Position numbers and translations under genes: made by a program. From a bacterium (GTDB taxonomy: Bacteria; Patescibacteriota; Minisyncoccia; UBA6257; GWB1-50-10), in NCBI GenBank assembly GCA_021812365.1, contig JAKANQ010000002.1, positions 16,953-80,952 of the forward strand: DNA of 64,000 bases. The letters are read 5' to 3'. This document shows positions 4,533-52,661 of this stretch, in pieces. Below the pieces are notes generated by a model. That model saw nothing but the letters and a program-made list of their open reading frames with translations, ran no database searches and was not told where the DNA came from. Numbering within the stretch: the first letter of the stretch is position 1; every line of letters starts with the position of its first letter.

Positions 4533-5915
4533 ATGGATCATCACGAACTTTGGAAGACGGTGCTTGGTGAGATCGAACTCCAGATTTCGCGTCCAAATTT
4601 CTTAACATGGTTTAAAAACAGTCAGCTTGTGGAAAAAAACGAGAAAGAGGGAATTGCTCTCGTGGGCGTTCCAAATAATTTTGCGAAGGAGTGGATAAAA
4701 AACAGATATCATAAGATCATTTTAGGCTCTTTGAGGAACATAGACGGTTCAATAAAGTATGTGAATTATGTCGTAGTGAATCACAACACGCCGCTCCAAC
4801 CCACAAAACAATCGAAGAAACAGAAAGAACCCGAGCTCACCGAGGAAAAAAACAATATTCCCATCACAGAGCTCCGCGTGGATCCGAAAACAAATCTTAA
4901 TCCGAAATATACATTCGACACTTTTGTGGTTGGTTCGTCGAACGAGCTTGCGTGTGCCGCCATCAACGCGATTATTGAGAGTGTGGGAAAGAAATATAAT
5001 CCTTTGTTTATTTATGGCGGCGTGGGGCTTGGGAAGACTCACTTGCTGCAGGCGGCGGGAAACGCGGTACAAGAAAAATACAAAGGAAAGGTGAATGTGC
5101 TTTACGTCACTTCGGAAAAATTTGTAAATGATGTTGTTTGGGCTCTCCGCAATAAGCGCGCGGAGGATATGAAGAAAAAATATAGGAACGTTGATATGCT
5201 CATCATTGATGATATTCAATTCATTGGAGGAAAACCCGCCACAGAATTGGAGTTTTTTTATACCTTTAACGCGTTATACGAAAACAACAAACAAATAATA
5301 ATATCTTCTGATAGGCCGCCCGCTGCGATTCCTACCCTTGAGGAACGTCTTCGTTCGCGTTTTGAAGGAGGAATGATAGCTGATGTCGCATATCCTGATT
5401 ACGAAATGCGGCTTGCGATATTGAGGACTAAAGCTCAATCTCACAACGTTGAAATAGACGAGAAAACACTTGAATATATTGCAACTAAAGTTCAAAAAAA
5501 CATTCGCGAGGTTGAGGGGGTTCTTAATAAGGTTATTTTTTATGAACAATACAAGCACGAAAAAATAGATCAAAAGAAACTTGATGATATCATCAATGAA
5601 ACCGCTCAAATCTCTCCGAAGAATATCACCGCAAACGAGATATTGAAGACAGTGGCTGAATTTTATGAGATATCACAATCCGATCTTTCGGACAGAGGAA
5701 GAAAACAAGAGGTGGTGGAGCCGCGCCAAGTCGCAATGTACCTTTTAAGAGAGATATTGAAGCTTTCATATCCTAATATCGGAGAAAAGGTTGGAAAAAG
5801 GGACCACACCACCGTCATTCACGCATATGAAAAGATAGCAAAAGAAATCACCACTAATTCCGCGCTTAATCAAAAAATACTTCTTATAAAAGAACGGTTG
5901 TTTAAAAACAATTAA
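4533..5915 (+). CDS. dnaA: Chromosomal replication initiator DnaA
   Basis: Walker A GGVGLGKTHLL. AAA+ sensor motifs. C-terminal DNA-binding signature ...KRDHTTVIHAYEKI. Start taken at MDHHELWKTVLGE (ORF track starts 63 nt earlier at 4470). Confidence 0.9.
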   Translation: MDHHELWKTVLGEIELQISRPNFLTWFKNSQLVEKNEKEGIALVGVPNNFAKEWIKNRYHKIILGSLRNIDGSIKYVNYVVVNHNTPLQPTKQSKKQKEPELTEEKNNIPITELRVDPKTNLNPKYTFDTFVVGSSNELACAAINAIIESVGKKYNPLFIYGGVGLGKTHLLQAAGNAVQEKYKGKVNVLYVTSEKFVNDVVWALRNKRAEDMKKKYRNVDMLIIDDIQFIGGKPATELEFFYTFNALYENNKQIIISSDRPPAAIPTLEERLRSRFEGGMIADVAYPDYEMRLAILRTKAQSHNVEIDEKTLEYIATKVQKNIREVEGVLNKVIFYEQYKHEKIDQKKLDDIINETAQISPKNITANEILKTVAEFYEISQSDLSDRGRKQEVVEPRQVAMYLLREILKLSYPNIGEKVGKRDHTTVIHAYEKIAKEITTNSALNQKILLIKERLFKNN

Positions 5916-6089
5916 GGTGTGGATAGATGTGGGTATAGGTATGTGCATAACACGGGGAAGAAAATAAAATTATAAAAAAAATCAACAATACCTTCCTTTT
6001 TCTCCACAAGATATTAATTTATTTAATGAGGCCTAGCGCGGAAAAATGACAATATCCACATATTCACAACTCTTACTACTACCACTAAT
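5916..6089. promoter_or_regulatory. Candidate oriC: DnaA-box cluster plus AT-rich unwinding element in the dnaA-dnaN intergenic region
   Basis: Four 8/9-9/9 matches to TTATCCACA/TGTGGATAA: tgtggatag at 5918-5926, tgtgggtat at 5928-5936, ttctccaca at 6000-6008 and atatccaca at 6052-6060. A/T-rich stretch at 5958-5990. Confidence 0.5.
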
Positions 6090-15865: not shown

Positions 15866-16090
15866 TATTGACAAAGTTAGGTTTCCGTGATAGGATAAGC
15901 CCAGAAATCCCAAATTGGGTTCTGTGGGCATTCGGATTCTTTCTTAGATTTTAGGATTGTTTGGCTCCGGCTGGATAACTCCTCGGAAATATCCGTTCCT
16001 TTCTTAAACTACATTTAGGAAAGGTTTTTACAAATGCCTTTATGGGCGCCCTGCCCACAGAACCGAGTTCGGGATTTTTTAGTATCCCGT
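15866..16090 (+). ncRNA. Candidate structured small RNA with its own promoter (function unknown)
   Basis: Near-consensus -35 TTGACA, 17-nt spacer, TAGGAT -10 at about 15868-15896. A 13-bp perfect long-range helix (ggttctgtgggca at 15922-15934 pairing with tgcccacagaacc at 16051-16063) encloses about 115 nt containing several internal hairpins. Ends in a T-run (gggatttttt). Sits in a 325-bp gap between two minus-strand genes. Confidence 0.3.
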
Positions 16091-33212: not shown

Positions 33213-33794
33213 TTAGCGCGCAGAAATGAGCGCCGCAACCTCTGTGTTTTTGATGAGTCCGCACTGTAGCGCGGCGATCACATCAAGCGGGGAGATGGCT
33301 CCAAGCGTAAGTGCTTCTCGTATCTCGATGAAAATGGGGAAGACGGTGCTGTCATTCACGCGGTCTCCGAGACCGTCGTGAAAGGCCTGCCCTTCTCTCG
33401 CGGTATCCGGAAAGCGGGCGCTGCGGCCCAGTGCGGTGCAGAGGATGTAGAATACCTCTCCTTCCTTGCGCTCGGGGTGTTCGAAACGTCTTCGTACTTG
33501 TTCCGATATCACCGACGGTTTTTCGACGGGCCTTGGCAGCTCTCCGTGAAGCGAGGCGTGCCAGGCCTCAAGCGCCTGACTCATCTCCTTTGTGGCTTTG
33601 GAGAAGTTTGGAATGTATGTATCCGCGATTTGCATCTCTTCCTTATTGCTTTTTGCTTTTTTCAGTAAGGCCGCCATTTCGGCAAAGATGCCTGCGGCAA
33701 TGAACTTTTGGTCCAACGCGCGAACAAAAAGATGCTGATTCATTCTCATGACGAACTCCTCAAAAGGGAAGATTGTAAAAGAACAACTGAACAA
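33213..33794 (-). CDS. Hypothetical protein (G+C-richer than the core genes; leftmost gene of the putative island)
   Basis: 193-aa ORF with no recognised motif. Locally higher G+C. Confidence 0.4.
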   Translation of the reverse strand: MFSCSFTIFPFEEFVMRMNQHLFVRALDQKFIAAGIFAEMAALLKKAKSNKEEMQIADTYIPNFSKATKEMSQALEAWHASLHGELPRPVEKPSVISEQVRRRFEHPERKEGEVFYILCTALGRSARFPDTAREGQAFHDGLGDRVNDSTVFPIFIEIREALTLGAISPLDVIAALQCGLIKNTEVAALISAR

Positions 33795-33862
33795 AAAAAT
33801 TGTAACCTATTTTAGTGAAAAAGTCAACATAAGAAAACCCCGCCTTTCGGCGGGGAAGTGAT

Positions 33863-34174
33863 TTATTTTGAAAGTGCCCATTTTCCAGTGCTTTCGAGTT
33901 TGTACTTCGTTTCGCTTCCGTCTTGGTTGCGAACGACTGTGGTTTCTGGGAATCCCGTGAATTCACTGTGTTCCACACACACAATGTTCACGGCTTCGGG
34001 GTGGTCGGCCTGTATGGCGTGAAGGATTTTTTTACGATCCCTTTTTATCCATATGAGAAGGCATATCACCGCGATGAGTACGAAGACCCAGTCCACTGGG
34101 TTGAAGCCGTGAGGGGACAGCGCGAGGGTCTTTGCGAGGAGCTTGACCCAGTGCGCGAGCAGCATGAACATCAT
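33863..34174 (-). CDS. Small hypothetical membrane protein
   Basis: 103-aa ORF with one TM helix (VFVLIAVICLLIWI). Confidence 0.35.
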   Translation of the reverse strand: MMFMLLAHWVKLLAKTLALSPHGFNPVDWVFVLIAVICLLIWIKRDRKKILHAIQADHPEAVNIVCVEHSEFTGFPETTVVRNQDGSETKYKLESTGKWALSK

Positions 34175-34408
34175 TCATCTCCGGATGGTTGATTGGCGGT
34201 CGCGCCAAAAGGTCTGTCTAAAGCGTACCATATAATACATATTTTGTCAATCAACCATCCTTTTTTCCTTCAAATGAAAACAACCCCGTTGTGGGGTTGT
34301 TTTGTGTGGACATCGTTCAAAAATCTTGGAACCAGCTAGAGTGCTTTGTTTTTGAATGGGGCGAGGCAATCAGAAACTTAATGGGCCAAGAATTTATAAG
34401 CGTTAGTA

Positions 34409-34831
34409 TCACACAGCATTAGTAGAACCATCTACGGGCTCTACGTATTCTCGGGTGCCTCTACAGCGAGGAAAACGACTACAACCATAAAACCTACCCC
34501 GAGTACCATTGCGCAAAATCATAGGCGCGTTGCAATGCGGACACGTCATAGAATTACTCGTATTCCCTTCCTTGTTCGCAAATAGTCCGGCAATACCTTT
34601 AATTATTCCACCGATTAAACCAATTATTAAACTGACACCGAGGGCAATGAGAGGATCCGCCTTCACGGTGGTTCGGTTGTAAAGTCTATTGTATGCGGCG
34701 CGTTTTGGATTAGTGATCCAGCCGTACCCACGGGGTGCTTTAAGTCCCATAGAGTGTCTGACTACGCGCTTCCAGGAAGTTCTCGCCGCAATCCTCTTTT
34801 TTAACGATGGTGTTCTTATGCCGAATTTCAT
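34409..34831 (-). CDS. Membrane-anchored protein with C-terminal topoisomerase-type C4 zinc ribbon
   Basis: Basic N-terminus. TM helix LIALGVSLIIGLIGGIIKGIAGLF. Then CPHCNAPM...YGCSRFPRCRGT (zf-C4_Topoisom-like). Confidence 0.45.
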   Translation of the reverse strand: MKFGIRTPSLKKRIAARTSWKRVVRHSMGLKAPRGYGWITNPKRAAYNRLYNRTTVKADPLIALGVSLIIGLIGGIIKGIAGLFANKEGNTSNSMTCPHCNAPMILRNGTRGRFYGCSRFPRCRGTREYVEPVDGSTNAV

Positions 34832-34940
34832 TTTATTAATAAATCATAATTCTTTGCTTAAAAGAGGGAAAGGGTTTTCTGTCCTTTTTATTCAAAAAAC
34901 CGACCAGCGTGATTGGTCGGTTTTTCAGCCTACTTGCCCC

Positions 34941-35396
34941 CTAAGACTGCCAGGGGGAGTTAACTTCTACGGGATAAACGTTCGGGAACCTATCTCCAAC
35001 CTTTGGGTTCCATTTGTCTCCCAGGTGGCGCTCTACGCCATCCAGATGGATTGCTGGAACGGCTGCCCACGTTGCGAAAAGGCCAAGGCCCTTATACGCA
35101 AGAATTTCTGGGTCCTGGTTGTGGTTGGAGAGCCTGTCTCCTATAACTCCCTGTCCAACCCTTACCACCGCTGGATTTGCTCCGCCGTGCCATATAATAT
35201 AAACGCCGCTTAGATTATCGAAATACGAACTTTCGAAATTTAAAGAAGCTAATTCATACCAATGGTCGGGGTGTTTAGCCCACTGCAGTTTTAACACTAT
35301 CTGCTTGTTAAGAGGGGGGTGTCGTGGTATGCTTAAACTGTTAGATTTGAGCATTTGGCCTGTATCGACCCGGAAAATCACGCTTTCCGAAGCCAT
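34941..35396 (-). CDS. Hypothetical protein with GIY-YIG-like nuclease motif
   Basis: GVYIIWHGGANPAVVRVGQGVIGDRLSNH fits the GIY-(x10)-YIG...R..H spacing. Confidence 0.4.
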   Translation of the reverse strand: MASESVIFRVDTGQMLKSNSLSIPRHPPLNKQIVLKLQWAKHPDHWYELASLNFESSYFDNLSGVYIIWHGGANPAVVRVGQGVIGDRLSNHNQDPEILAYKGLGLFATWAAVPAIHLDGVERHLGDKWNPKVGDRFPNVYPVEVNSPWQS

Positions 35397-35582
35397 TTTC
35401 CACTAAAAACATCCTTTCCCGGGTGTTTTTTAGTAGCACGTTGGTTATTAACACCTCCCTATTGTGCTACGGGGGTCAGAGGTATATAATACTATTAACC
35501 CTTAACGTTAATTATATCACGTTTATGAGTTGAAAACAAGCAATGTGTGGACTATGCTGGTCGAGTAGTCCACAACAAAGAA

Positions 35583-35915
35583 ATGATAGTATCTTTCGAA
35601 AAAAAGAAATTAGCTGACCAGCTTGGCAATCCGCGCACTTGTATTCAAAGCTACGGAGTAGCTATGCAAAAAATGATCCATAGGAGGCTAAACGAACTAT
35701 CTGCCGCCCCCTGCCTGGAAACGATGCGCGGCATAGGAGATTGCCACGAATTGCACGGCGTATCAAAAGGACTTTTGGCGATTGATTTAATCGGTAAGCA
35801 GCGAATGGTATTTAGGCCTGCGGCCCCATCGAGCTCATATACAGAAAATAACTGTATTGCCTGGGCGAAGATAGATGATGTGATTATCGTCGGCGTGGGA
35901 GATTACCATAAATAA
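35583..35915 (+). CDS. higB: HigB-type toxin (plasmid maintenance killer protein, RelE/ParE superfamily)
   Basis: MIVSFEKKKLADQL... N-terminus and C-terminal ...IIVGVGDYHK (the family ends in DYH). 5 nt upstream of the HTH-antitoxin gene. Confidence 0.65.
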   Translation: MIVSFEKKKLADQLGNPRTCIQSYGVAMQKMIHRRLNELSAAPCLETMRGIGDCHELHGVSKGLLAIDLIGKQRMVFRPAAPSSSYTENNCIAWAKIDDVIIVGVGDYHK

Positions 35916-35919
35916 AAAG

Positions 35920-37032
35920 ATGAATAAAAACGATTTAATATTTAAGCCTTCTGTTGCCATCGCGCCAGGAGAAACACTTTTCGAATTGATAAATTCACTA
36001 GGCATTACGCAGGCAGAGCTTTCTCGACGAATGAATAGGCCGTTGAAAGTTGTCAACGAAATAATTAAGGGCAAATCAGCAATTACCCCAGAAACCGCGC
36101 TACAACTTGAGCAGGTTTTGGGTAAGCCCGCTTCGTTTTGGAATAATTTGGAAGCAACCTATCAAGGGCTTCGTGCGCGCGAATATTTGCGAGAGCAGCT
36201 GTCTTCGTTGGTTAATGAAGCAGAAAAATTTCCGTATACAGAAATGGCTGGGCTAAATTGGGTGCCAAGGGCAAGCGACGAAATCGACAGGGTCCACAAT
36301 TTGCTAAGTTTCTTCTCCGTAACTTCGTTCGATAACATTGTAGAAAAAGCTGCTCTAAAAGCTGCTTTTGATGTTTCAACTAAGCACAAAAAAGATAAGC
36401 CGGCCATATACGCCTGGTTGAGGCAGGGCGTTAGACAAATTGAAGGATTTCAGACTAAGGATTTTGATAGAAGCAAACTAATAAGCACACTTCCAGAAAT
36501 TAAAGGCTTAACAAAACTTTCGCCCGAGGAATTTATACCAAAATTGACGAGTATTTTGTCTGATTGTGGGGTTGCCTTTGTTGTTGTTAAGAGCATAACA
36601 AATGCTCCGGTTTTTGGTTCTACCAGATGGCTTGCTTCGAATAGAGCGCTAATACAGCTGAGCATTAGACTGCGCTGGGCAGATCGCTTTTGGTTTTCTT
36701 TGTTCCACGAGCTTGGACATATTCTTTATGGAAACAAGAAGGATTTTAATGTCGATTTTCTTGAAAATAACCCGGATGGAGATATTGAGGAAAAGGCTAA
36801 TTCTTTTGCCAGAGATGCACTTGTTAGCCCTGAAGATTATTTGAAAATAGTTAGCGTAATCGCCCCTAGAATTAGAGCAAAACAACCTGTTTATCCACTA
36901 GTCAATTCATTTGCGCAGACGCTAAATATACATCCAGGAATAATTGTTGGAAGGTTGCAGCACGATGGAATTTTCCCTCCTACTTTTAATAAATTAAGGG
37001 ACCGTCTCGAATGGAAAGGGGGCGAAAATTAA
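35920..37032 (+). CDS. HigA-type XRE-family HTH antitoxin fused to an ImmA/IrrE (DUF955) zinc-metallopeptidase domain
   Basis: HTH GITQAELSRRMNRPLKVVNEIIKGKSAITPETALQLEQVLG. C-terminal FSLFHELGHILYG (HExxH) with a downstream E/D, typical of ImmA/IrrE. Confidence 0.7.
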   Translation: MNKNDLIFKPSVAIAPGETLFELINSLGITQAELSRRMNRPLKVVNEIIKGKSAITPETALQLEQVLGKPASFWNNLEATYQGLRAREYLREQLSSLVNEAEKFPYTEMAGLNWVPRASDEIDRVHNLLSFFSVTSFDNIVEKAALKAAFDVSTKHKKDKPAIYAWLRQGVRQIEGFQTKDFDRSKLISTLPEIKGLTKLSPEEFIPKLTSILSDCGVAFVVVKSITNAPVFGSTRWLASNRALIQLSIRLRWADRFWFSLFHELGHILYGNKKDFNVDFLENNPDGDIEEKANSFARDALVSPEDYLKIVSVIAPRIRAKQPVYPLVNSFAQTLNIHPGIIVGRLQHDGIFPPTFNKLRDRLEWKGGEN

Positions 37033-37033
37033 A

Positions 37034-37180
37034 TTAGGTTATTAGGTTTTTAAACCTAATTCGGTTATCCGGTTAAATAACAGGATTTTTCAGTTGGGTT
37101 ATTGGCTTTTTAAAGCCAAAATGGATTTTTGGATTAAATAATCCAATTTCGGTTATTTTGGTTTTTTTAACCTAATTTTC
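37034..37180. repeat. Iteron-like array: four GGTTAT motifs interleaved with A/T-centred palindromes
   Basis: GGTTAT at about 37037, 37063, 37097 and 37150. Palindromes aggtttttaaacct (37043-37058), ttggctttttaaagccaa (37102-37119), ttggattaaataatccaa (37129-37146) and ggtttttttaacc (37160-37172). Lies between two convergent gene ends. Confidence 0.6.
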
Positions 37181-37516
37181 GTGCTTGTCTTCTTTGCGCT
37201 CCTCCATCCACGAGCCACCCTCCCACATTGATTTCATACCCCTTATCAAAGGGTTCATTCCGGCCGCTGCCATAAGGTAATAAAGCACCCCGAATAAGCC
37301 AGCAACGATCATAGCGACTACGCTGCTGAAGTTAAAATCGGAAACCAGCAAAGAAAATATAACCCAAATCCCAAAACCAATCCCGGCTCTTTTGAAATGC
37401 TTTTTCTCCAGCTTTTTCATAGATTGACCTTTGTTAATGTGCTGGCTGAAAACACAAAGCTCCCAGCCAGCGATGACCTTGCGGCCACCAACCCGAGTTT
37501 CCCCGGATTGCCTCAA
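37172..37516 (-). CDS. Small hypothetical membrane protein
   Basis: Two TM helices (IGFGIWVIFSLLV and VVAMIVAGLFGVLYYLMAAAG). The real start may be the internal MKKLEKK at 37420. Confidence 0.35.
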   Translation of the reverse strand: MRQSGETRVGGRKVIAGWELCVFSQHINKGQSMKKLEKKHFKRAGIGFGIWVIFSLLVSDFNFSSVVAMIVAGLFGVLYYLMAAAGMNPLIRGMKSMWEGGSWMEERKEDKHEN

Positions 37517-37956
37517 CAGCGCTCTGACTAGGAGCTTTCTGCTGTTGAGGTCTTGAGGAACCGTGCCGCCGATTTCTCGGACGGGTTAGGTTCTGCCTTT
37601 CGGCTATTCAGTTGTGGTTTTATATTACCTCAGAAAGTGTATAATGAAAATGTTCTTTAAATCAGAGTGTCATCAAGGGAATTAATTTTCTAGCAGTCTG
37701 ACCCCGACTTAGAGCGGGCGCAATATTTCGCAATTCCTTTAAACGCAAAGACCCCAGCGTTTAAGGGATTAGTCTACCCAAACGCTGAGCAGCGTTTTTT
37801 TGTTGTTTTGCGAAAATGCTCACGCTTGAGGAGTGTAGAAAACTAGACCCAATATTTCAGGAAATGGCCGACGCACAGCTTTTAGAGTTGTTGGCGACTT
37901 TGTGTGCACTGGTCGATAGTGTTTTAGATAATGAATTGGACTAAAATAAAACCACT

Positions 37957-39525
37957 ATGAAGCAGAAGGCTCTAATTTACTGTCGCGTATCTTCCGAGAG
38001 GCAAAAAAATGAAGGCCACGGACTTGATGGTCAAGAGCATCGCTGCCGGGAATATGCGAGAAGCAAAGAATATGAAGTTGAGGAAGTGTTTCGGGATAGT
38101 TTTACTGGAGGGGGCGATTTTATGAAGCGTCCGGCTATGCGAGAGTTGCTTAATTATGTCGACAAGAATAGCCATAAAGAATACGTTGTAATTTTTGACG
38201 ATCTCAAGCGCTTTGCCCGAGACACAATCTTCCATTGGAATTTGCGACGCGAATTTCGTGCGCGCGGACTAAAACCAGAATGCCTCAATTTTAATTTTGA
38301 TGATAGCCCGGAAGGAGCTTTTGTGGAAACGGTTTTTGCCGCACAAGGTCAATTAGAACGAGAGCAAAATAAACGTCAGGTGATACAAAAACAAAAAGCC
38401 AGACTAGAAAGGGGCTATTGGCCGTTTTATCACCCGCCGGGTTATAGAGCCATCAACAATCCGATACACGGCAAACTCCTTGCGCCCGTCCAACCGGAGG
38501 CGAAGATAATCAAACAAGCTTTTGAGGGTTTTGCGTCTAACAGATTTCAGGAGCAGGTTGATGTCCAAAAATTTTTAACCCAGGAAGGTTTTGGTGGTGG
38601 ACGAAAAATATATTTGGGAATGGTGGGCAAATTATTACGGAGGGCAATTTATGCTGGCTACATAGAATATCCCGATTGGGAAGTTGAGAGGAGGGAGGGG
38701 CATCACGAGCCATTGATAAGCAAAGAAGTTTTTGCAAGGGTTCAGGAAAAGCTTTCTGGCAAGTTAAAAACTTTTTCCAGGCGCGATACTCGAGAAGATT
38801 TTGCGCTCAGGGGGTTTGTTTTATGTCCGGAGTGTTCGCAGCCATTTACCGCTTCTTGGACTACGAAAAAGCGAAAAAATTACAGAATTGGCTATTATCG
38901 CTGCAAGACGGCTGGATGCTCTCTAAAAAATAAAAATATAAACAAAACAGTTATCGATAAGCAGTTTGAAGAGCTGCTTTCGGGGATCAAGCCAAAATCG
39001 GCAATATTAAAACTAACTCAGGCAATATTTATAAAAGCTTGGAATGACCGAGTGTCCACGGCTGAAATCCGTAAAAGTGCAACGGCGAAGGAGTTGGAGG
39101 TTGTGGAAGGTGAAATAGCAGCATTGGCGCGCAGGGCAGCCAAAACGGGCAGTGAAGAGGCTCTGGGGGCTTATGAGAGGGAGATTGAGGCTCTCGGAAA
39201 GAAGGCCGCCTCTTTGCGGGAAAAGCTGGGAGGATTAGAAAAGCCAAAAATAAATTTTGAAACCGCCTTAAATATGGTTTTTGAATTTATCAAAAATCCC
39301 CACAATAAGTGGGTTAATGGAGATTTGGCAACAAAACGCCTACTCTTAAAAGTTGTTTTTGAGAGCAAGATTAGATACAGCAAAGAAAATGGATTTGAAA
39401 CCGCCAATTTAGCCCTTCCCTTAAGGGTTTTTGAGCATTTTGCGGTTTCTAAATACGCAGGTGTGGAGATGACCGGAGTTGAACCGGTGTCCAAGATACT
39501 TCCCATAGACCGTCTACAAGCTTAG
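37957..39525 (+). mobile_element. Large serine recombinase (phage-integrase type); 3' end reads through the tmRNA gene
   Basis: Resolvase catalytic N-terminus MKQKALIYCRVSSERQ. Recombinase domain. Zinc ribbon CPECSQPF...YRCKTAGCSL. Coiled-coil region. The last ~20 codons are encoded by the ssrA 3' tRNA-like domain on the opposite strand. Confidence 0.8.
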
Positions 39526-39801
39526 TCCTCTTATAGAGAGCGAATTGATTCTAATTTTAACGATTGCATACGAACCTGCTCTGTAATCGCGATTTTCAAA
39601 TATTACACCAGCGAACCCCTATGAAACCTCGGGGACTGATGCCTCACTCTTAAAGAGTGAGGAACACCATTCATTACGCAAATGCGAATGAAGGCGCTGC
39701 AACACGAGTGTTGTCAGTTACATTTTTTTGATCCTTTAACGAAGTGATCGTTTCGGCCTGCAAATCTATGAGTGGGTATATTGTCAAAGCCCAACATCCC
39801 C
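39464..39801 (-). ncRNA. ssrA: tmRNA (SsrA)
   Basis: 5' GGGGATGTTGGGCTTTGACA... 3' ...GGACACCGGTTCAACTCCGGTCATCTCCA closely parallels E. coli GGGGCUGAUUCUGGAUUCGAC... / ...GGACGCGGGUUCAACUCCCGCCAGCUCCA. 5' and 3' ends pair as an acceptor stem. Multiple internal hairpins. Immediately downstream of smpB. Confidence 0.75.
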
Positions 39802-47528: not shown

Positions 47529-50500
47529 TTATTTATTTAGCGTGCGGGCAAAGATACTGAGGTCCTGAATATCAATCACTCCATCGCCATTAAAATCCAA
47601 ACTTTTTCTTGTTGCGGGGTCTTTTGAAAGCCAGCGCGCGAGGAAGATGCTGAGGTCGCTTGCGTTCACCACCCCATCGCCGTTCAGATCTGTTTTTGGC
47701 ACAAAAAGATTAGTCACGAGAAATGTGCGCTCGACTGAGGAATCGCTTCTTTCTCCACTGCTGTTCGATTGCCATACGCGCACGGTGTGAGTGCCGAGCT
47801 GAAGGTCCAATGTGTTAAAGGCTATCTTGTATTCTCCGGAACTTCCCGCAACTACAATATTTGGAATTGATTTTCCATCGATAGATGCTTCGATGGTATT
47901 TCCAGGCGAGGCAAACCCCGTGATTCCCAAGAACCCTCCTTTAAGAACCGCCTGCTGCGTAAAGCCGAGCGTAGGCGGCAGAAACACATCTCGCACAATG
48001 AGGGTTTGGTTCGCGTTGATGGGATACACTTTTGTTTGCGTGGGGCGTCCGCTTTCATCAGTCGCCGAGAGGAAGTATTGCTGTATGCCAGGCGTGGTGT
48101 CGTTGAAACGAATTGAGAACGCTCCATCCGCTCGTGCGGTAGCGCCTCGGCGTACCGGAATATTTCCATTTGAGACGCCCAATATGGTTAGTTTTGCGCC
48201 TGGAAATGCGGTGCCCGAAAAGATCACCGTTGAACGAATGAGTGCGGGCTCACCTCCTGCACTTACCGTCATTACGGGCGTGCTTGAGAAGGTGACGGTC
48301 TGTGTTGACGATACATCAAGCGTGGTTGAGGCGGTATCAAGGAGGCTGAGCGTCACCGTTTCCGCAACTGTATCGGTGATTGTTTTTGTGCCTATGCCGT
48401 TCGTAACGGTGACAATTCCACCGCCAACTGCCGAGCCTGAGACGACAAGGGTAACGCTATTGTTGTAGGTGGTATCAAGATTTCCACTATTGTCTTCCAC
48501 TCGTATTGTGACTGTGGTATTCGTTCCTACGAGAGTGTCATTGGGTTTTATTATCGTGAATCGAGTTGCAATTATGGGGGTGTTGGAAACAGTCACTGAT
48601 TGTGATGCATCCGCAATTCCCACCGCGCCATCCGGCGTCGATGAATTATCCGACGCGGTTATGGTCCATGTGCCCACCGCCGTGTCATAATACCAGAATG
48701 ATGCGGTTGATGCTCCGTCCGCTATTGTTCTAGATGCGATAGGGCTTCCGCCGCTTGCGCCGCCGTAGAAAGCACTCGAAGTACTATTTGAATACATATA
48801 GAATGTATTACTACCCGCCGTTACCAAATTTCCAAAACTGTCCTTTCTTGTCACCGTGTATCCGAGCCGCGTGCCCGCGGTCATATTGCCGGGGTTATCA
48901 ATAAGGAATTGTGAGGTGGTTGCGGGGGATACCGTCACCGATTGCGATGCGTCCGCGATTCCCGTCGCGCCATCGGGCGCTACCGCGTTGTCGGACGCGG
49001 TGACAACCCACGTTCCCGCTTTTCCTTCCGAGTACCAGAATTGAGTTGCGGAACTGCCATCCGTGATCTGTACCGATGTTATCTGGATGCCCCCACTCAA
49101 TGCGCTATAGAATGCGCCAAGCCCTCCTGTTGCATTTGAATACAAATGAATCGTGTCCGTACCCGCCGTTACCAAATTTCCAAAACTGTCCTTTCTTGTC
49201 ACCGTGTATCCGAGCCGCGTGCCCGCGGTCATATTGCCGGGGTTATTGAGAATGAATTGTGCGGTCGGTCCCGTGGTGAAGGTAACGGTCTGTGTTGACG
49301 ATACATCAAGTGTGGTTGAGGCTGTCGCGGTAAGCGAGAGTGTTACTGTTTCCGCTTTCGTGTCGGTGATGTTGACCGTGCCCACACCATTTACGATGGT
49401 GAGTACTACGCCATTTTGAGGAGTTGCCAATCCCGATGTTTTTAGCGTGATATCGGTGCTGTTGTTATACGTGGTATCAAGATTTCCTGAGTTATCCTGT
49501 GCTTGCACTGTGACCGGTATTGTACTGCCCACCACGCCGTCAGTCGGCTTTAGGATGACTATGCGAGTTGCGATGATTGGCGCGGCATTTACCGTCACCG
49601 ATTGCGATGCGTCCGCGATTCCCGTCGCGCCATCCGGCGCTACGGCATTGTCGGAAGCAGTTATGGTCCATGTGCCAACTTGTTCATCGTAGTACCAAAA
49701 ATTCGCGGAGGATGAGCCATTTGTGATTACCATTGAAGTCACGAGATTGCCGCCCGCACTCGCGTCATAGAATGCCTTTGTCGCTCCCGTTGAGTTCGAG
49801 TAAAGGTGCGCGGTATCGCTGCCTACGGTCACTGTATTTCCGAATATGTCTTGTCTTGTCACCGTGTATCCGAGCCGCGTGCCCGCGGTCATATTGCCGG
49901 GGTTATTGAGAATGAATTTTCCTGTAGATGCCGGTACGATCACGATTGCGTTCGTGCCGTCAATTATCCCCGTCGCGCCATCCGGTGCTACCGCGTTGTC
50001 GGACGCGGTTATGGTCGCGGAGCCTGCAAGTTCGTCGTAGTACCAGAATTGCGCGGATGAGGAGCCTGGGAGTATCGCGACGTTTGTTATCGTGGTGCTT
50101 CCTGTCGCACTATCGAAGAATTTTTTCATCCCCCCCGCGGAACTGCTATAGAGATATGCGGTGCTTGTACCTACGGTAGAAAGATTTCCGAATTGGTCCT
50201 TTCGCGTGACGGAATAGTCCAAGCGTGTTCCTGCGACCATCGATGTCTGATTTGTGAGTGAGAATTGAGCTGCGGCTCCCGGAGTTATCATCACAATGCT
50301 CGTTCCATCTTTTATCCCCGTCGCGCCATCCGGTGCTACCGCGTTGTCGGACGCGGTTATGGTCGCGGAGCCTGCAAGTTCGTCGTAGTACCAGAATTGG
50401 GCGGATGAGGTTCCATTTTGAACTGTTATTGAGGTGATGATGTTTCCTCCGCTCGCCGCATCGTAAAATCGTTTCGCACTCCCCGCGGAATCGCTATAAA

Positions 50501-52661
50501 GATAGAATGTCTCACTTCCCATCGTTTTCAGGTTGTTGTATTGATCTTTTCGTGTGACGGCGAACATTCCTCTTGTCCCCGCAACGGTACTACTTACGCC
50601 CGACAAGAAGAGCTGTGCAGTCGCTCCGGGTGAGAATATCACGTCTTGTGTCGAGCTTACATCAAGGCCCGTTCCTTGCGTATCGGAGAGTGAGAGGTGG
50701 ACCGTTTCCGCGACCATGTCGGAGATAGTGGTAGTACCTACGCCGTTTACGATATTCACGAGGCCGCCACCCGTCGCGGAACCGGATTTCAAAAGGGTCA
50801 CATCTTGCTGATATGTTGTTGCAATGGCCCCCGCATTATTTTGTGCTTCTATGGTGACCATTATCGGCGCGTCGACTGTGCCGTTGGCGGGCGGGAGAAT
50901 GACGAATTTTGTGGGGGTTATTGGTTTCGGCATTCCAAGTTGAAATGCGCCGAATCCAGTTATACCTCCCGCTGCCGTGCTTACGGATGTTCTTGTCCCC
51001 ACCGTTGGATAGGACCATGCCGAACCTGCATATTGTCCGACAATAAGGTCTCCTGTATTTACCCCGGAATCAAGGTCCCCAGGATTAACGAAGGTGAAGA
51101 TCGCGCTGTAATTATCAAATGCTATTGCCGAGCTTGTGGCTGTCCAATACCGATTCACGCTTTTTGTTCCGTCTATATTGGAAGCGGCGATATTCGGATG
51201 GTCTCCTGCTGTTGTGCTGAATGTCAGGTCTCCGCCGCTTGTTACATTACCGAACGCAATGCTTACGGGAGCGTAGTTTGATGAGTCGCCAATTTCGAAT
51301 ATCTTACTCGTTGCTCCCACACCAATATATTTTCTAAGATTGCCGATGATGTGTCCCGATGTGCGTGCTACGTTTCCCGTTCCGCTTATATAGATATCGT
51401 TTGCGCCCGTTACGACATTGCCCGAGGTTAGTGTGAGTGTTCCATCAACGCGCGTACCTGCGCCGGAGAGCGTGGCTGCCCCCGCGCCTTTATTTATCGT
51501 AAGATTTGAATAGGTGAGGGCGGCAACTGTTTGCGCAATGCCCGCAACGTATTCCACCGTCGTGCCCGCAGAGATGTTTCTTGTGGTAAAGGAGGGGAAT
51601 GCGGTGGCTGAACTTGAGCTGCCCAGCACGAATGTTCCCGACGCGAGATTCAGAGTTCCTGTCCCCGTAAGCTGGAAACCGCCATCATTGAATATGCTGT
51701 TTGCAATCGTTGCTCCGATGGTAAACGGTTTTGTGCCAACCGATTTCGCAGCATTCAAGGTAACTCCATTTGCGTTTTCAATCAAAACGCCACCACTGCC
51801 AGGCCACGGCGAGATGAATTCACTGCCGGTCGTTTGCGCCGCGGAACCTTTGTACTCCAATGTTGATGCTGTGCCTGGACTGAGTGTACCCGTAAGAATG
51901 GTCGTTGCCGATCCCTGCATTGAGAGCTTGCCACTTACCGCCGTCGTGCCTGTTATGAATGTCTTTGCACCGCTTCCCGAAAGCGTAAGATTTGCATATG
52001 TTGTCGGTTTAAGCGATTGGTCGGCGCCATCGTAATTCACGATGTTTCCCGCTGCGGTTGCGGTGAGTGTTACATTTGCCGCGGGTGTGAACGTTCCACT
52101 TATGTTCACCACCGCGTTGGTGCCCTGTGTCCATATTGCGGTTCCTCCGGTCCTCATATAATTTCCGTTGAGATATATGGTTCCGTTATTGGTAACCGTT
52201 TTACCGGCTGAATCAATATCATTGTTGATTGTGAGATTGGCGGATGAAAGGAAAGAAAAGTTTTGAGCCGCAAGTATGATGCTATTTATGGTACCGTTCC
52301 CATCTATGGTTTGCCCCTTAGTATTCATTTTTATCGTTGCCGTTCCGCCATTCACATCGCCATTCACCGCGATGTTGCCGTTTTCGGTGATAATTGCCGT
52401 GCTATTTATGTTCAGTGTGGCGCCCGAATTTACCGTGAGGCCTGCATTGGTGATGTTCGTACCGATGGTCACGCTGTTGCCGCCCGTTGTGGCAATGATC
52501 GCGGAGTCGTTATTGGTAGGAGCAATGCCCCCTATCCACGTTCCGCCGGCCGTCCAATTACCCCCCGTTGCGGTGCTTGTTCTTACTGCCGCATCCGCAG
52601 TCGGCACAAGAAGCACCGATGCAAAAAGCATCGCTGTACCGAGTAATAGAGTCTTTTTCAT
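47529..52661 (-). CDS. Giant secreted repeat protein (1710 aa) with beta-helix-like N-region, nested tandem Ig-like repeats and C-terminal type-I dockerin
   Basis: Signal peptide MKKTLLLGTAMLFASVLLVPTADA. G/T/N-rich N-terminal region. Six copies of an about 100-aa repeat (...FWYYDE..GTWTITASDNAVAPDGATGI...), plus three copies of a larger repeat (PIIATR..I.KP.DG.VG...). C-terminal DLNGDGVVNASDLSIFLARWL...DFNGDGVIDIQDLSIFARTL is a textbook duplicated dockerin Ca-binding segment. Confidence 0.7.
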   Translation of the reverse strand: MKKTLLLGTAMLFASVLLVPTADAAVRTSTATGGNWTAGGTWIGGIAPTNNDSAIIATTGGNSVTIGTNITNAGLTVNSGATLNINSTAIITENGNIAVNGDVNGGTATIKMNTKGQTIDGNGTINSIILAAQNFSFLSSANLTINNDIDSAGKTVTNNGTIYLNGNYMRTGGTAIWTQGTNAVVNISGTFTPAANVTLTATAAGNIVNYDGADQSLKPTTYANLTLSGSGAKTFITGTTAVSGKLSMQGSATTILTGTLSPGTASTLEYKGSAAQTTGSEFISPWPGSGGVLIENANGVTLNAAKSVGTKPFTIGATIANSIFNDGGFQLTGTGTLNLASGTFVLGSSSSATAFPSFTTRNISAGTTVEYVAGIAQTVAALTYSNLTINKGAGAATLSGAGTRVDGTLTLTSGNVVTGANDIYISGTGNVARTSGHIIGNLRKYIGVGATSKIFEIGDSSNYAPVSIAFGNVTSGGDLTFSTTAGDHPNIAASNIDGTKSVNRYWTATSSAIAFDNYSAIFTFVNPGDLDSGVNTGDLIVGQYAGSAWSYPTVGTRTSVSTAAGGITGFGAFQLGMPKPITPTKFVILPPANGTVDAPIMVTIEAQNNAGAIATTYQQDVTLLKSGSATGGGLVNIVNGVGTTTISDMVAETVHLSLSDTQGTGLDVSSTQDVIFSPGATAQLFLSGVSSTVAGTRGMFAVTRKDQYNNLKTMGSETFYLYSDSAGSAKRFYDAASGGNIITSITVQNGTSSAQFWYYDELAGSATITASDNAVAPDGATGIKDGTSIVMITPGAAAQFSLTNQTSMVAGTRLDYSVTRKDQFGNLSTVGTSTAYLYSSSAGGMKKFFDSATGSTTITNVAILPGSSSAQFWYYDELAGSATITASDNAVAPDGATGIIDGTNAIVIVPASTGKFILNNPGNMTAGTRLGYTVTRQDIFGNTVTVGSDTAHLYSNSTGATKAFYDASAGGNLVTSMVITNGSSSANFWYYDEQVGTWTITASDNAVAPDGATGIADASQSVTVNAAPIIATRIVILKPTDGVVGSTIPVTVQAQDNSGNLDTTYNNSTDITLKTSGLATPQNGVVLTIVNGVGTVNITDTKAETVTLSLTATASTTLDVSSTQTVTFTTGPTAQFILNNPGNMTAGTRLGYTVTRKDSFGNLVTAGTDTIHLYSNATGGLGAFYSALSGGIQITSVQITDGSSATQFWYSEGKAGTWVVTASDNAVAPDGATGIADASQSVTVSPATTSQFLIDNPGNMTAGTRLGYTVTRKDSFGNLVTAGSNTFYMYSNSTSSAFYGGASGGSPIASRTIADGASTASFWYYDTAVGTWTITASDNSSTPDGAVGIADASQSVTVSNTPIIATRFTIIKPNDTLVGTNTTVTIRVEDNSGNLDTTYNNSVTLVVSGSAVGGGIVTVTNGIGTKTITDTVAETVTLSLLDTASTTLDVSSTQTVTFSSTPVMTVSAGGEPALIRSTVIFSGTAFPGAKLTILGVSNGNIPVRRGATARADGAFSIRFNDTTPGIQQYFLSATDESGRPTQTKVYPINANQTLIVRDVFLPPTLGFTQQAVLKGGFLGITGFASPGNTIEASIDGKSIPNIVVAGSSGEYKIAFNTLDLQLGTHTVRVWQSNSSGERSDSSVERTFLVTNLFVPKTDLNGDGVVNASDLSIFLARWLSKDPATRKSLDFNGDGVIDIQDLSIFARTLNK
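48370..50600. repeat. Coding tandem DNA repeats (about 330-345 bp units, about 6 copies) inside the giant gene
   Basis: cgtgtatccgagccgcgtgcccgcggtcatattgccggggtt recurs at about 48856, 49201 and 49861. Repeated shadow ORFs on the opposite strand. Confidence 0.6.

What the first reader, a model, noticed from the sequence alone, without database searches (positions are those of the whole stretch)
37034..37180. Iteron-like array of GGTTAT motifs and A/T-centred palindromes between convergent gene ends
About 150 bp with no coding potential contains four GGTTAT motifs and three to four palindromes of the form GG(n)TTTTTAAA(n)CC: aggtttttaaacct, ttggctttttaaagccaa, ttggattaaataatccaa and ggtttttttaacc. 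Both flanking genes terminate here, so the array is not a promoter.

The architecture (repeated protein-binding half-sites plus easily melted A/T cores) resembles three kinds of site. One is a plasmid or phage replication origin. Another is a partition centromere. A third is the attachment or resolution site of the adjacent recombinase-bearing element.
Basis: seen in the sequence. Interest (0 to 1): 0.55.

Follow-up and report, generated by a model that had tools for sequence, protein, structure and literature searches.

The report
Hairpin-repeat array inside a mobile island
The 140-bp stretch is a real, non-random array of five small hairpin repeats at the seam between swappable defence genes and the fixed core of a 5-kb mobile island. 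It is not that island's attachment site, and nothing supports a replication origin or centromere; most likely it is a fast-evolving transcription stop or insulator.

Summary
Window 37034-37175 holds four same-strand GGTTAT motifs, a cluster never reached in 300 shuffles, and five short palindromes.

It is better described as five ~27-nt "triads" on the + strand. Each has a GGTTWT-type half-site, a second half-site, and that half-site's inverted copy. The last two form a 7-9-bp AT-rich hairpin. Covariation across 15 triads from six related elements supports the hairpin (0/500 shuffles) and argues against sequence-identical iterons.

The array lies inside a ~5.2-kb element (about 34306-39467) inserted into the 3' end of the tmRNA gene by a large serine recombinase. 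The att junctions map to the element ends, 2.3-2.7 kb away, so the array is not the attachment site. No Rep or Par gene is present.

Triad number ranges from 1 to 5 or 6 among relatives. A sister element has three, differing by a 61-nt indel. Triads are absent where the recombinase is 55% identical or less. There is no other copy in the 64-kb window or in 0.84 Mb of related loci, so it is not REP-like.

The array always marks the boundary between variable defence/toxin-antitoxin cargo and the conserved backbone.

My best guess (confidence 0.4) is a polar, weak terminator/insulator hairpin array that expands by slippage. A recombination-junction role or a protein-binding role remains open.

The parts
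37034..37059 (+). Triad 1: TTAGGTTA (37034-41), TTAGGTTT (37042-49), loop TT, AAACCTAA (37052-59). It is the most conserved unit and sits at the edge of the variable cargo.
   Evidence: 41.5 bits. It is 27/27 identical in L079, whose backbone is only 81% identical. It is also identical in L003 and L078.
37060..37085 (+). Triad 2: TTCGGTTA, TCCGGTTA, loop AA, TAACAGGA. The hairpin is imperfect, with one G-A mismatch.
   Evidence: 22.7 bits. In L078 an A>C change repairs the mismatch, giving CCGGTT-AAAC-AACCGG.
37094..37119 (+). Triad 3: TTGGGTTA, TTGGCTTT, loop TT, AAAGCCAA.
   Evidence: I17; the only hairpin flagged as terminator-like; 23 bits. In L078 the whole palindrome is the exact reverse complement, loop TT>AA.
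37120..37146 (+). Triad 4: AATGGATT, TTGGATTA, loop AA, TAATCCAA.
   Evidence: I18; 35.8 bits. There is a compensatory A>G plus T>C change in L078, giving TTGGGTTAA/TTAACCCAA.
37148..37175 (+). Triad 5: TTCGGTTA, TTTTGGTTT, T-run, AACCTAA. The hairpin is weak, and its 3' arm overlaps the TAG stop (37172-37174) of the 82-aa ORF.
   Evidence: 18 bits. The stem is one pair longer in L078.
37069..37129 (.). The ~61-nt segment that is missing in sister element L003. It equals one coarse repeat period, so the difference is a copy-number change.
35664..37032 (+). Variable cargo module next to the array: an HigB-like toxin gene (35664-35915) and a 370-aa HTH/ImmA (HigA-family) gene (35920-37032).
   Evidence: Over about 35450-37030 identity to L003 is only 65-70%, against 96-100% on both sides.
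37172..37420 (-). 82-aa small membrane-protein ORF, convergent with the cargo. It has no family match beyond its own 3-member cluster.
37472..37592 (-). LOOT RNA (RF03000), lying 51 nt upstream of the 82-aa ORF on the same strand.
37957..39525 (+). Large serine recombinase gene. Its 3' end runs across the right junction into the tmRNA gene.
34304..34310 (.). Left junction core GTGTGGA (attL). The displaced tmRNA terminator hairpin lies just outside at 34277-34303.
39461..39467 (.). Right junction core GTGTGGA (attR), inside the 3' end of the tmRNA gene (39461-39801, - strand).

Best explanation
**What it is (shown).** The array is a lineage-specific, expandable set of small hairpin units ("triads"). 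Each unit is a GGTTWT-type motif followed by a 7-9-bp AT-rich stem-loop. The array forms the seam between exchangeable cargo and the conserved backbone of a ~5.2-kb integrative element. That element was inserted into the tmRNA gene by a large serine recombinase. The backbone comprises LOOT RNA with a small membrane ORF, a 42-aa ORF and the recombinase.

**What it does (inferred).** The array works as structure rather than as sequence. On the + strand, each hairpin followed by a U-rich stretch acts as a weak intrinsic terminator and 3'-end protector. Several in tandem would stop transcripts leaving whatever cargo is present. That keeps them from running antisense into the convergent LOOT/small-ORF unit and the recombinase control region.

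**How it evolves (inferred).** The array grew from a single ancestral junction hairpin by slipped-strand duplication and deletion. Its palindromes are kept symmetrical by selection, by intrastrand templated repair, or by both.
For: **Position and orientation**
- It fills the gap between convergent stop codons.
- All units point the same way in all six elements that carry triads.

**Structure is conserved, sequence is not**
- Across 15 triads, 82.8% of stem cells pair, against 72.3% in shuffles.
- 18 cells changed on both sides, against 7.4 in shuffles; the covariation score is 0.331 against 0.138. No shuffle in 500 reached the observed value on any of these three measures.
- 5 of the 9 stem pairs have a change on both sides, but 73/500 shuffles reach that count, so this measure alone is weak.
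- Window versus L078 shows one compensatory pair, one mismatch repair and one stem extension. The only stem loss is the loop-closing pair of triad 2.

**Polarity**
- The 8 nt after each main array hairpin hold 4-5 U on the + strand in the window, apart from triad 3, whose U-run starts 5 nt further on.
- The - strand tails in the window hold only 1-2 U.
- The L080 unit at 5445-5474 is a 7-bp stem followed by TTTTTG.
- One window hairpin passes the terminator scan.

**Dispensable and variable**
- Copy number: 5 in the window, 5 plus an extra hairpin in L078, 3 in L003, 3 in L079, 1 junction unit plus 1 elsewhere in L080, and 1 in L083.
- It is absent from LOOT/recombinase elements with 55% recombinase identity or less.
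- It diverges as fast as the neighbouring ORF: 91% versus 90% identity, while LOOT is 98%.

**Boundary with cargo**
- The cargo upstream differs in every element: two HigBA alleles, a PDC-M68B-like gene, a retron-type RT-protease, an SDH-protease set and an unknown ORF. Conservation resumes exactly at triad 1.
Against: - The stems are weak, -2 to -9 kcal/mol with 2-3 G-C pairs, and the U tracts are interrupted.
- Canonical G+C-rich terminators exist in the same element, at 37780-37805 and at the tmRNA terminator 34277-34303.
- In L083 the single triad sits between two canonical terminators, so termination does not need it there.
- The - strand, which carries the LOOT/ORF transcript, gets no terminator-like signal from the array.
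- The GGTTWT half-site before each hairpin is better conserved than the stems, and a terminator model does not explain that.
- Triad 1 is 27/27 identical in an element whose backbone is 81% identical. This hints at sequence-specific constraint or recent exchange.
- G-U wobble counts show no strand preference, so an RNA-level role is not demonstrated.
- No transcript data are available.
Confidence: 0.4

Rival explanations
1. **Recombination seam.** The triads are DNA-level junction elements where cargo modules are exchanged. This could be as hairpin-forming hot spots for illegitimate or homologous exchange, or as true recombination sites for an unidentified enzyme. In the second case they would be cassette-boundary sites, analogous in logic to integron attI/attC.
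For: - The boundary between variable cargo and conserved backbone is sharp, falling exactly at the left edge of triad 1 in four elements.
- Triad 1 is an island of 27/27 identity in L079, flanked by unrelated sequence on both sides.
- In L080 a replaced LOOT-driven ORF (122 aa instead of 82 aa) is flanked by two direct triads, at 5030-5059 and 5445-5474. They are about 82% alike by my manual alignment.
- A 61-nt indel lies between repeats.
- The triad 3 palindrome is exactly inverted between the window and L078, which is a DNA-hairpin signature.
- GGTTATTA also occurs at the left edge of the variable HigBA segment, at 35443-35450.
Against: - No recombinase other than the large serine recombinase is present, and its att cores (GTGTGGA) are unrelated to the triads.
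- The left boundary of the variable segment decays gradually, as homologous recombination would produce.
- The left-edge GGTTATTA is not conserved in L003.
- Only one case (L080) has triads on both sides of a gene.
- Tandem integration followed by homologous recombination would explain cargo shuffling without any special site.
Confidence: 0.2
2. **No dedicated function.** The array is a mutationally driven minisatellite of quasi-palindromes. An ancestral terminator hairpin was duplicated by slippage, and its palindromes are kept symmetrical by template switching.
For: - Copy number is variable, and units are lost or decayed in relatives. Examples are the degenerate L080 junction unit and the L003 hybrid unit.
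- It diverges as fast as a coding neighbour.
- There is no strand bias in wobble pairs.
- It is absent from most of the wider element family.
Against: - Hairpins are maintained in every expanded copy, with significant covariation.
- The GGTTWT half-site is retained in nearly all 15 aligned triads; window triad 4, which has GGATTT, is the clear exception.
- Triad 1 is perfectly conserved against an 81% background, a chance of about 0.003 if neutral.
- A junction triad persists down to 58% recombinase identity.
Confidence: 0.2
3. **Protein-binding site for maintenance or transfer.** The array would bind a protein on double- or single-stranded DNA. Candidates are an iteron-type or single-strand origin, a partition centromere, a packaging (pac/cos-like) signal or an origin of transfer. 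The hairpin plus the adjacent GGTTWT motif would be the recognition unit.
For: - The architecture is a conserved short motif next to a variable hairpin, repeated and strictly oriented.
- The centres are A/T-rich.
- A 5-kb element with only a recombinase needs some route of transfer (inference).
Against: - The element has no Rep, Par, relaxase or terminase gene.
- Units are not sequence-identical, and spacing is not in helical phase.
- Copy number ranges from 1 to 5-6, and the array is missing from related elements with the same backbone.
- There is no similar DNA in the plasmid or phage collections.
Confidence: 0.12
4. **Miniature transposable element (MITE-like) or REP/BIME-like dispersed repeat** that happened to land between two genes.
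For: - An 11/11 inverted repeat bounds the array in the window: AAATTAGGTTA at 37031-41 and TAACCTAATTT at 37168-78 (I7).
- The modular hairpin units of variable number recall BOX and BIME elements (my own knowledge).
Against: - A covariance model run with filters off finds no other copy in the 64-kb window.
- None is found in 0.84 Mb of related loci outside this element clade.
- Pattern scans find none in viral contigs, and only two single-unit chance matches in JGI metagenomes.
- The terminal inverted repeat is just triad 1 pairing with triad 5, and it is absent in L079.
- There is no target-site duplication.
- The position is fixed at the same junction in six elements.
Confidence: 0.05

Closest known systems
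Tandem or bidirectional intrinsic terminators between convergent genes
   Same: It occupies the gap between convergent stop codons. It consists of hairpins followed by U-rich tracts on one strand. Structure is conserved while sequence drifts, and number and strength vary between relatives.
   Different: The stems are A/T-rich and weak, and the U tracts are interrupted. Only one strand looks terminator-like. Each hairpin is preceded by a conserved GGTTWT half-site that terminators do not have. Canonical terminators co-exist next to the unit in L083.
REP/BIME elements of enterobacteria and BOX elements of pneumococci (my own knowledge)
   Same: These are short imperfect palindromes with a conserved flanking motif. 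They are arranged in modular clusters of variable unit number in intergenic 3' regions, and are thought to stabilise mRNA or pause transcription.
   Different: Those families are dispersed in tens to hundreds of copies per genome. This unit is found only at one junction of one small family of mobile elements. No RAYT-like gene was seen in the element.
Plasmid iterons and partition centromeres
   Same: It has repeated short motifs in one orientation with A/T-rich sequence, located on a mobile element.
   Different: The units are not sequence-identical or evenly phased. There is no Rep or Par gene. Copy number is unconstrained, and the array is missing in related elements.
Integron attC/attI cassette-boundary sites
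   Same: These are hairpin-forming sites found exactly at the borders of exchangeable gene cassettes. They are conserved in structure rather than sequence.
   Different: No tyrosine integron integrase is present. Only one gene (in L080) is flanked on both sides. No R-box/L-box organisation was shown. This is an analogy for the novel reading, not a membership claim.
ssrA (tmRNA gene)-targeting genomic islands, such as the Dehalococcoides islands of PMC3146451, whose abstract describes islands integrated at ssrA. This comparison concerns the host element, not the array.
   Same: A genomic island is inserted at the 3' end of the single-copy tmRNA gene and carries variable cargo, as in the islands described in that abstract. 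I did not confirm from the paper's text which type of integrase those islands use.
   Different: This one is a much smaller (~5 kb) element in Patescibacteria. It carries defence/toxin-antitoxin cargo, a LOOT RNA leader and the hairpin-triad junction. I did not read the paper beyond its abstract.

Membership tests
Iteron-type replication origin | Several near-identical direct repeats (about 17-22 bp) at regular, helically phased spacing | tested here: not met
   Units are about 60-77% alike. GGTTAT spacings are 26, 34 and 54 nt, or 26/34/26/28 nt if the GGATTT at 37123 is counted.
Iteron-type replication origin | A cognate initiator (Rep) gene on the same element | tested here: not met
   Pfam, PHROGs, NCBIfam and PADLOC scans of all element ORFs find a recombinase, HigB/HigA-ImmA, a zinc-ribbon protein and unknowns. 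No Rep is found.
Iteron-type replication origin | Conserved presence and arrangement in related replicons | tested here: not met
   There are 1 to 5-6 units in six relatives, and none in LOOT/recombinase elements with 55% recombinase identity or less.
Partition centromere (parS/parC) | An adjacent ParA/ParB (or ParM/ParR) operon whose adaptor binds the repeats | tested here: not met
   No such gene is present in the 5.2-kb element.
Attachment site of the large serine recombinase (attP/attL/attR) | The site lies at the junction between element and host DNA and contains the crossover core | tested here: not met
   The junctions map to 34304-34310 and 39461-39467 (shared core GTGTGGA) by comparison with L003, L079 and L080. 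The array is internal and shares no sequence with them.
Resolvase res site | Three dimer-binding subsites with a shared half-site, directly upstream of the resolvase gene | tested here: not met
   The array is 780 bp from the recombinase gene, with the LOOT/ORF unit in between. The palindrome half-sites differ from one another. The enzyme is an integrase-type large serine recombinase. Binding itself is not testable here.
REP/BIME-like dispersed repeat | Many dispersed copies in the same genome | tested here: not met
   The covariance model R1, run with filters off, finds only the five array units in 64 kb. The next best hit scores 12.8 bits with E 2.8. The rest of the genome was not available.
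MITE | Terminal inverted repeats, target-site duplication and multiple copies | tested here: not met
   The 11-bp inverted repeat in the window is triad 1 pairing with triad 5 and is absent in L079. There is no duplication of flanking bases and no other copy.
Intrinsic (Rho-independent) terminator | A stable G+C-rich stem-loop immediately followed by a U tract | tested here: inconclusive
   On the + strand the stems are 7-9 bp at -3.6 to -8.7 kcal/mol, with 4-5 U in the next 8 nt for most array hairpins and 2 for triad 3. One of the five passes the scan. On the - strand the window array shows 1-2 U. No transcript data are available.
CRISPR array | Identical repeats separated by unique spacers, usually with cas genes | tested here: not met
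   The units abut one another without spacers and are not identical. Only chance-level Rfam CRISPR-DR hits appear, with E 4-10.
Any Rfam RNA family | A score at or above the family's gathering threshold | tested here: not met
   There is nothing in the array at the gathering threshold. At E<=10 only sub-threshold chance hits appear, scoring 11-18 bits.

The most novel reading that the evidence does not exclude
The triads (a GGTTWT motif plus a hairpin) could be recombination sites of a cassette-exchange system. That system would be carried by small tmRNA-targeting serine-recombinase islands of Patescibacteria. On this reading, defence genes and toxin-antitoxin genes, and even the LOOT-driven small ORF, are swapped at hairpin sites. 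The logic would parallel integron attC/attI but use a different, unidentified enzyme, or the serine recombinase acting on folded DNA. The evidence does not exclude this: cargo boundaries coincide with triad 1, one gene in L080 is flanked by two direct triads, and one palindrome is exactly inverted between relatives.
Probability: 0.1. Interest if true: 0.7.

Novelty: new variant of a known kind. Interest (0 to 1): 0.35.

Why it matters
The array on its own is a modest finding. It is a structured, fast-evolving junction element whose most likely job is to insulate convergent transcription units.

It matters mainly as a marker. It defines the seam between the fixed core and the exchangeable cargo in a previously undescribed family of ~5-kb islands. 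These islands insert into the tmRNA gene of Patescibacteria (CPR bacteria) and carry anti-phage or toxin-antitoxin cargo.

If the triads turn out to be recombination or protein-recognition sites, they would reveal how these minimal islands trade defence genes. The same loci also give a genomic context to LOOT RNA, a structured RNA for which I found no functional description.

Tried and rejected
**Searches that found nothing useful**
- An exact 24-nt scan of viral contigs returned nothing.
- A degenerate 22-nt scan of JGI metagenome contigs returned two single-unit chance matches with no array. That collection apparently lacks the samples that hold this element.
- blastn of the region against plasmid and phage collections gave no match.
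- Rfam at gathering and at E<=10 found nothing real in the array.
- A literature search for LOOT found no usable text: the one hit was an author's name, and no supplements are held.

**Relatives that did not help**
- The 82-aa neighbour has only three near-identical sequences, and the viral scan found none.
- HigA-ImmA homologue contexts L004, L005 and L006 have a different backbone and no array. P0004 had no DNA on file.
- 68 GTDB loci around recombinases of 37-63% identity have no arrays.

**Apparent hits that proved to be chance**
- A generic \"direct-direct-inverted\" finder and an AGGTT..AACCT scan gave scattered hits. These included one inside the coding region of L063 and an ordinary hairpin in L004.

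**Ideas tested and dropped**
- MITE reading: rejected, because the terminal inverted repeat is not conserved and there are no other copies.
- Alternative pairing of the first half-site with the inverted copy: not supported by covariation.
- G-U wobble bias to pick the transcribed strand: uninformative.
- DnaA boxes, dif/Xer-like sites, CsrA GGA motifs and integron core sites: checked by eye only, with no convincing match.
- Complementarity between the LOOT 5' end (AACCUAA) and the triad arms: noted, but LOOT is invariant there, so covariation cannot test it.

Full report
**1. Observation**

The region 37033-37171 is the complete gap between two convergent ORFs. One is a 370-aa HTH_3/Peptidase_M78 (HigA-family) gene ending at 37032. 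The other is an 82-aa membrane-protein ORF on the - strand ending at 37172.

GGTTAT occurs four times, all on the + strand, at 37037, 37063, 37097 and 37151. A same-strand cluster of four within 120 nt was never reached in 300 dinucleotide shuffles of the window. Shuffles of the local 170 nt give a mean of 0.21 copies.

The palindromes are real (I13, I17, I18). The region folds far better than shuffles on both strands, with z = -4.0 and -5.5. The only ORF of 20 aa or more is a 21-aa GTG ORF at the right edge.

**2. Anatomy**

Five triads fill the gap: 37034-59, 37060-85, 37094-119, 37120-46 and 37148-75. The stop codon of the 82-aa ORF lies inside the last arm. TRF sees the 8-9-nt half-site periodicity. 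The repeat finder sees a coarser ~60-nt period.

A covariance model of the triad (R1), run with filters off, finds exactly these five units in the 64-kb window, scoring 41.5 to 18 bits and all on the + strand. Nothing else scores better than 12.8 bits, E 2.8.

**3. What the array sits in**

Rfam finds a tmRNA gene at 39461-39801 (-) and a LOOT RNA at 37472-37592 (-). A 522-aa large serine recombinase gene (37957-39525) runs into the 3' end of the tmRNA gene.

A syntenic metagenomic contig, L003, aligns to window 34306-39474 and nowhere else. Both ends of the aligned block carry GTGTGGA, at 34304-34310 and 39461-39467. Just outside the left end lies a terminator hairpin (34277-34303). Joined to the tmRNA 3' end, this hairpin reconstructs an uninterrupted tmRNA gene with its terminator.

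So the array is internal to a ~5.2-kb integrative element in ssrA, 2.3-2.7 kb from either junction. It is not the attachment site.

The element encodes:
- a zinc-ribbon protein and a 151-aa unknown protein;
- an HigB-like toxin and the HigA/ImmA protein, which also resembles PD-Lambda-2_B;
- the 82-aa ORF and LOOT RNA;
- a 42-aa ORF and the recombinase.

There is no Rep, Par, relaxase or terminase gene.

**4. Comparative evidence**

Five further elements carry triads.

| Locus | Recombinase identity | Triads |
|---|---|---|
| L003 | backbone 96-100% identical | 3 (lacks 61 nt, one coarse period) |
| L078 | recombinase gene not on the 1.1-kb contig; 94% nt identity over the 836 nt aligned | 5, plus an extra hairpin |
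| L079 | 90% | 3 |
| L080 | 63% | 1 degenerate junction unit, plus 1 between the LOOT leader and a different downstream ORF |
| L083 | 58% | 1, lying between two canonical terminators |

All of these units have the same orientation.

In elements with 55% recombinase identity or less that still have LOOT, a downstream membrane ORF and the tmRNA target, there are no triads. The convergent gap there can be as short as 5 nt.

The DNA is absent from viral contigs, plasmids and phages. JGI metagenome contigs gave only two single-unit chance matches. The array is therefore specific to one small clade of mobile elements. It is not a genome-wide REP-like repeat, and it is not essential to the wider element family.

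**5. Structure versus sequence**

I aligned 15 distinct triads (A4) and tested the hairpin formed by the second half-site and the inverted copy.
- 82.8% of cells pair, against 72.3% in shuffles.
- 18 cells changed on both sides, against 7.4 in shuffles.
- The covariation score is 0.331, against 0.138.
- No shuffle in 500 reached the observed value on any of these three measures, and slid registers collapse to 15-53% pairing.

These shuffle counts ignore relatedness, but the triads are mostly paralogues that have diverged to 60-77% identity.

Pairing of the first half-site with the inverted copy rests on invariant columns only.

Between the window and L078 the array is 91% identical. That matches the neighbouring ORF (90%) and is well below LOOT (98%). 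Yet the 13 changes include one compensatory pair (A>G with T>C in triad 4), one mismatch repair (triad 2), one stem extension (triad 5) and an exact inversion of the triad 3 palindrome. The only stem loss is the loop-closing pair of triad 2.

So the hairpins are maintained and the stem sequences are free to change. The GGTTWT half-site upstream is the best-conserved sequence element. This is the opposite of what iterons or dimer-binding palindromes predict.

G-U versus A-C counts give no strand preference. The hairpin could therefore matter in RNA or in DNA.

**6. Position relative to cargo**

Window and L003 are 96-100% identical except over about 35450-37030, the HigB/HigA module, which is only 65-70% identical. 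High identity resumes exactly at TTAGGTTAT.

In L078, L079, L080 and L083 the gene or genes upstream of the triads differ again:
- an unknown 70-aa ORF;
- a PDC-M68B-like protein;
- an SDH-protease set;
- PDC-S42 plus a retron-type RT-protease.

Triad 1 is 27/27 identical in L079, whose backbone is 81% identical and whose flanks on both sides of the triad are unrelated. If that stretch were neutral, 0.81^27 gives a chance of about 0.003.

The array is thus the first conserved feature of the backbone next to a cargo bay. That bay extends from the left junction to triad 1.

**7. Mechanism**

The features I weigh:
- The array lies between convergent units.
- It has fixed polarity.
- It is conserved in structure only.
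- It has U-rich tails on the + strand only: 4-5 of 8 U after four of the five window hairpins, against 1-2 on the - strand of the window array.
- Its copy number is free to vary.
- It can be lost altogether.

On this basis I take it most probably to be a set of weak, additive intrinsic-terminator or 3'-end hairpins. They would stop transcripts leaving the exchangeable cargo before those transcripts run antisense into the LOOT/small-ORF unit. The array grew from a single ancestral junction hairpin by slippage. Confidence is 0.4.

Shown: anatomy, location, polarity, covariation, copy-number change and restriction to the clade. Inferred: any effect on transcription.

Against this reading:
- The stems are weak, at -2 to -9 kcal/mol.
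- Canonical terminators occur elsewhere in the element, and next to the lone triad of L083.
- The conserved GGTTWT motif and the perfect conservation of triad 1 are unexplained.

Rival readings, with my confidence in each:
- a recombination seam or cassette-boundary site (0.2);
- a functionless quasi-palindrome minisatellite (0.2);
- a protein-binding origin, centromere, packaging or transfer site (0.12);
- a MITE or REP-like repeat (0.05).

**8. Comparison with known systems, and verdict**

The array works most like tandem terminator or REP/BOX-type hairpin clusters. It fails the membership tests for iteron origins, centromeres, serine-recombinase att or res sites, dispersed REP/MITE families, CRISPR arrays and every Rfam family.

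The attachment-site idea is refuted, and the origin and centromere ideas have no support.

I rate it a new variant of a known kind (intergenic hairpin-repeat cluster) of moderate-to-low interest. The surrounding element family, and its link to LOOT RNA, is arguably the more interesting result.

Noticed in passing
window 37472-37592 (-); also L003 3188-3308 and 7391-7537, L078, L079, L080, L081, L083, L011, L012, L013, L014, L015, L063: LOOT RNA (RF03000) recurs in small serine-recombinase islands of Patescibacteria, most of which sit beside a tmRNA gene. In the 11 copies I checked it lies 19-83 nt upstream, on the same strand, of an ORF. These ORFs are unrelated in sequence, and most begin with a hydrophobic, membrane-like segment (my reading of the translations; L012's does not). 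It looks like a 5' leader or cis-regulator carried by these elements.
   Followed up: partly
window 37650-37812 (+): There is a conserved leader (98% identical to both L003 and L078) between the LOOT promoter region and the 42-aa ORF/recombinase operon. It ends in a canonical terminator (37780-37805). The 5' arm of that terminator can instead pair with an upstream segment (CAGCGTTT...AAACGCTG). This looks like an attenuator controlling recombinase expression. 5 of the 32 predicted pairs show compensatory changes across 5 elements.
   Followed up: partly
window 39461-39525: The recombinase ORF reads across the right junction, so its last ~18 codons are antisense to the tmRNA 3' end. In L003 the same gene ends in different flanking DNA and is 545 aa long. 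The C-terminus therefore depends on the integration site.
   Followed up: partly
window 35450-37030: The HigB-like/HigA-ImmA module is a swapped allele: 65-70% identity to L003 inside a 96-100% identical element. The 370-aa protein also matches the defence-system component PD-Lambda-2_B at 1.9e-31.
   Followed up: partly
L079 1-1020; L080 3224-5019; L083 271-2945: The cargo bays of sister elements hold candidate anti-phage genes: PDC-M68B-like in L079, and PDC-S42 plus a retron-type RT-protease (type XI) in L083. L080 has an SDH-protease gene set that gave no PADLOC match. These ~5-kb islands therefore look like miniature defence islands at ssrA in CPR bacteria.
   Followed up: partly
window 37102-37119 versus L078 775-796: The triad 3 palindrome in L078 is the exact reverse complement of the window copy (TTGGCTTTTTAAAGCCAA versus TTGGCTTTAAAAAGCCAA). 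This small loop inversion is typical of DNA hairpin or cruciform template switching.
   Followed up: no
window 35443-35450: GGTTATTA, the same 8-mer that starts triad 1, occurs at the left edge of the variable HigBA segment, inside a small quasi-palindrome (GGTTATTAACACC). It is not conserved in L003, where the sequence is TCTTATTA.
   Followed up: partly
L003 5190-6100: The sister element in L003 is not next to a recognisable tmRNA gene. Its right flank is different DNA, with a tRNA gene about 750 nt away (5945-6032) and a second LOOT RNA further on. The same element type may use more than one target site.
   Followed up: no
window 48288-50758: Several families of long direct repeats (51-164 nt units with 348- and 660-nt spacings, 61-83% identity) lie in a G+C-richer stretch. 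This is probably a repetitive-domain surface protein gene.
   Followed up: no
window 15905-15930 and 16052-16077: A 26-nt inverted repeat, 88% complementary, with 121 nt between the arms (I4). Its nature was not examined.
   Followed up: no
window 33213-34174: Two ORFs (193 aa and 103 aa) with no credible family match lie between infC and the left junction of the island; the only hit was a sub-threshold CcmD match. The homologous host position in L080 holds a different gene (Bac_transf). This could be the remnant of an older insertion at the same site.
   Followed up: no
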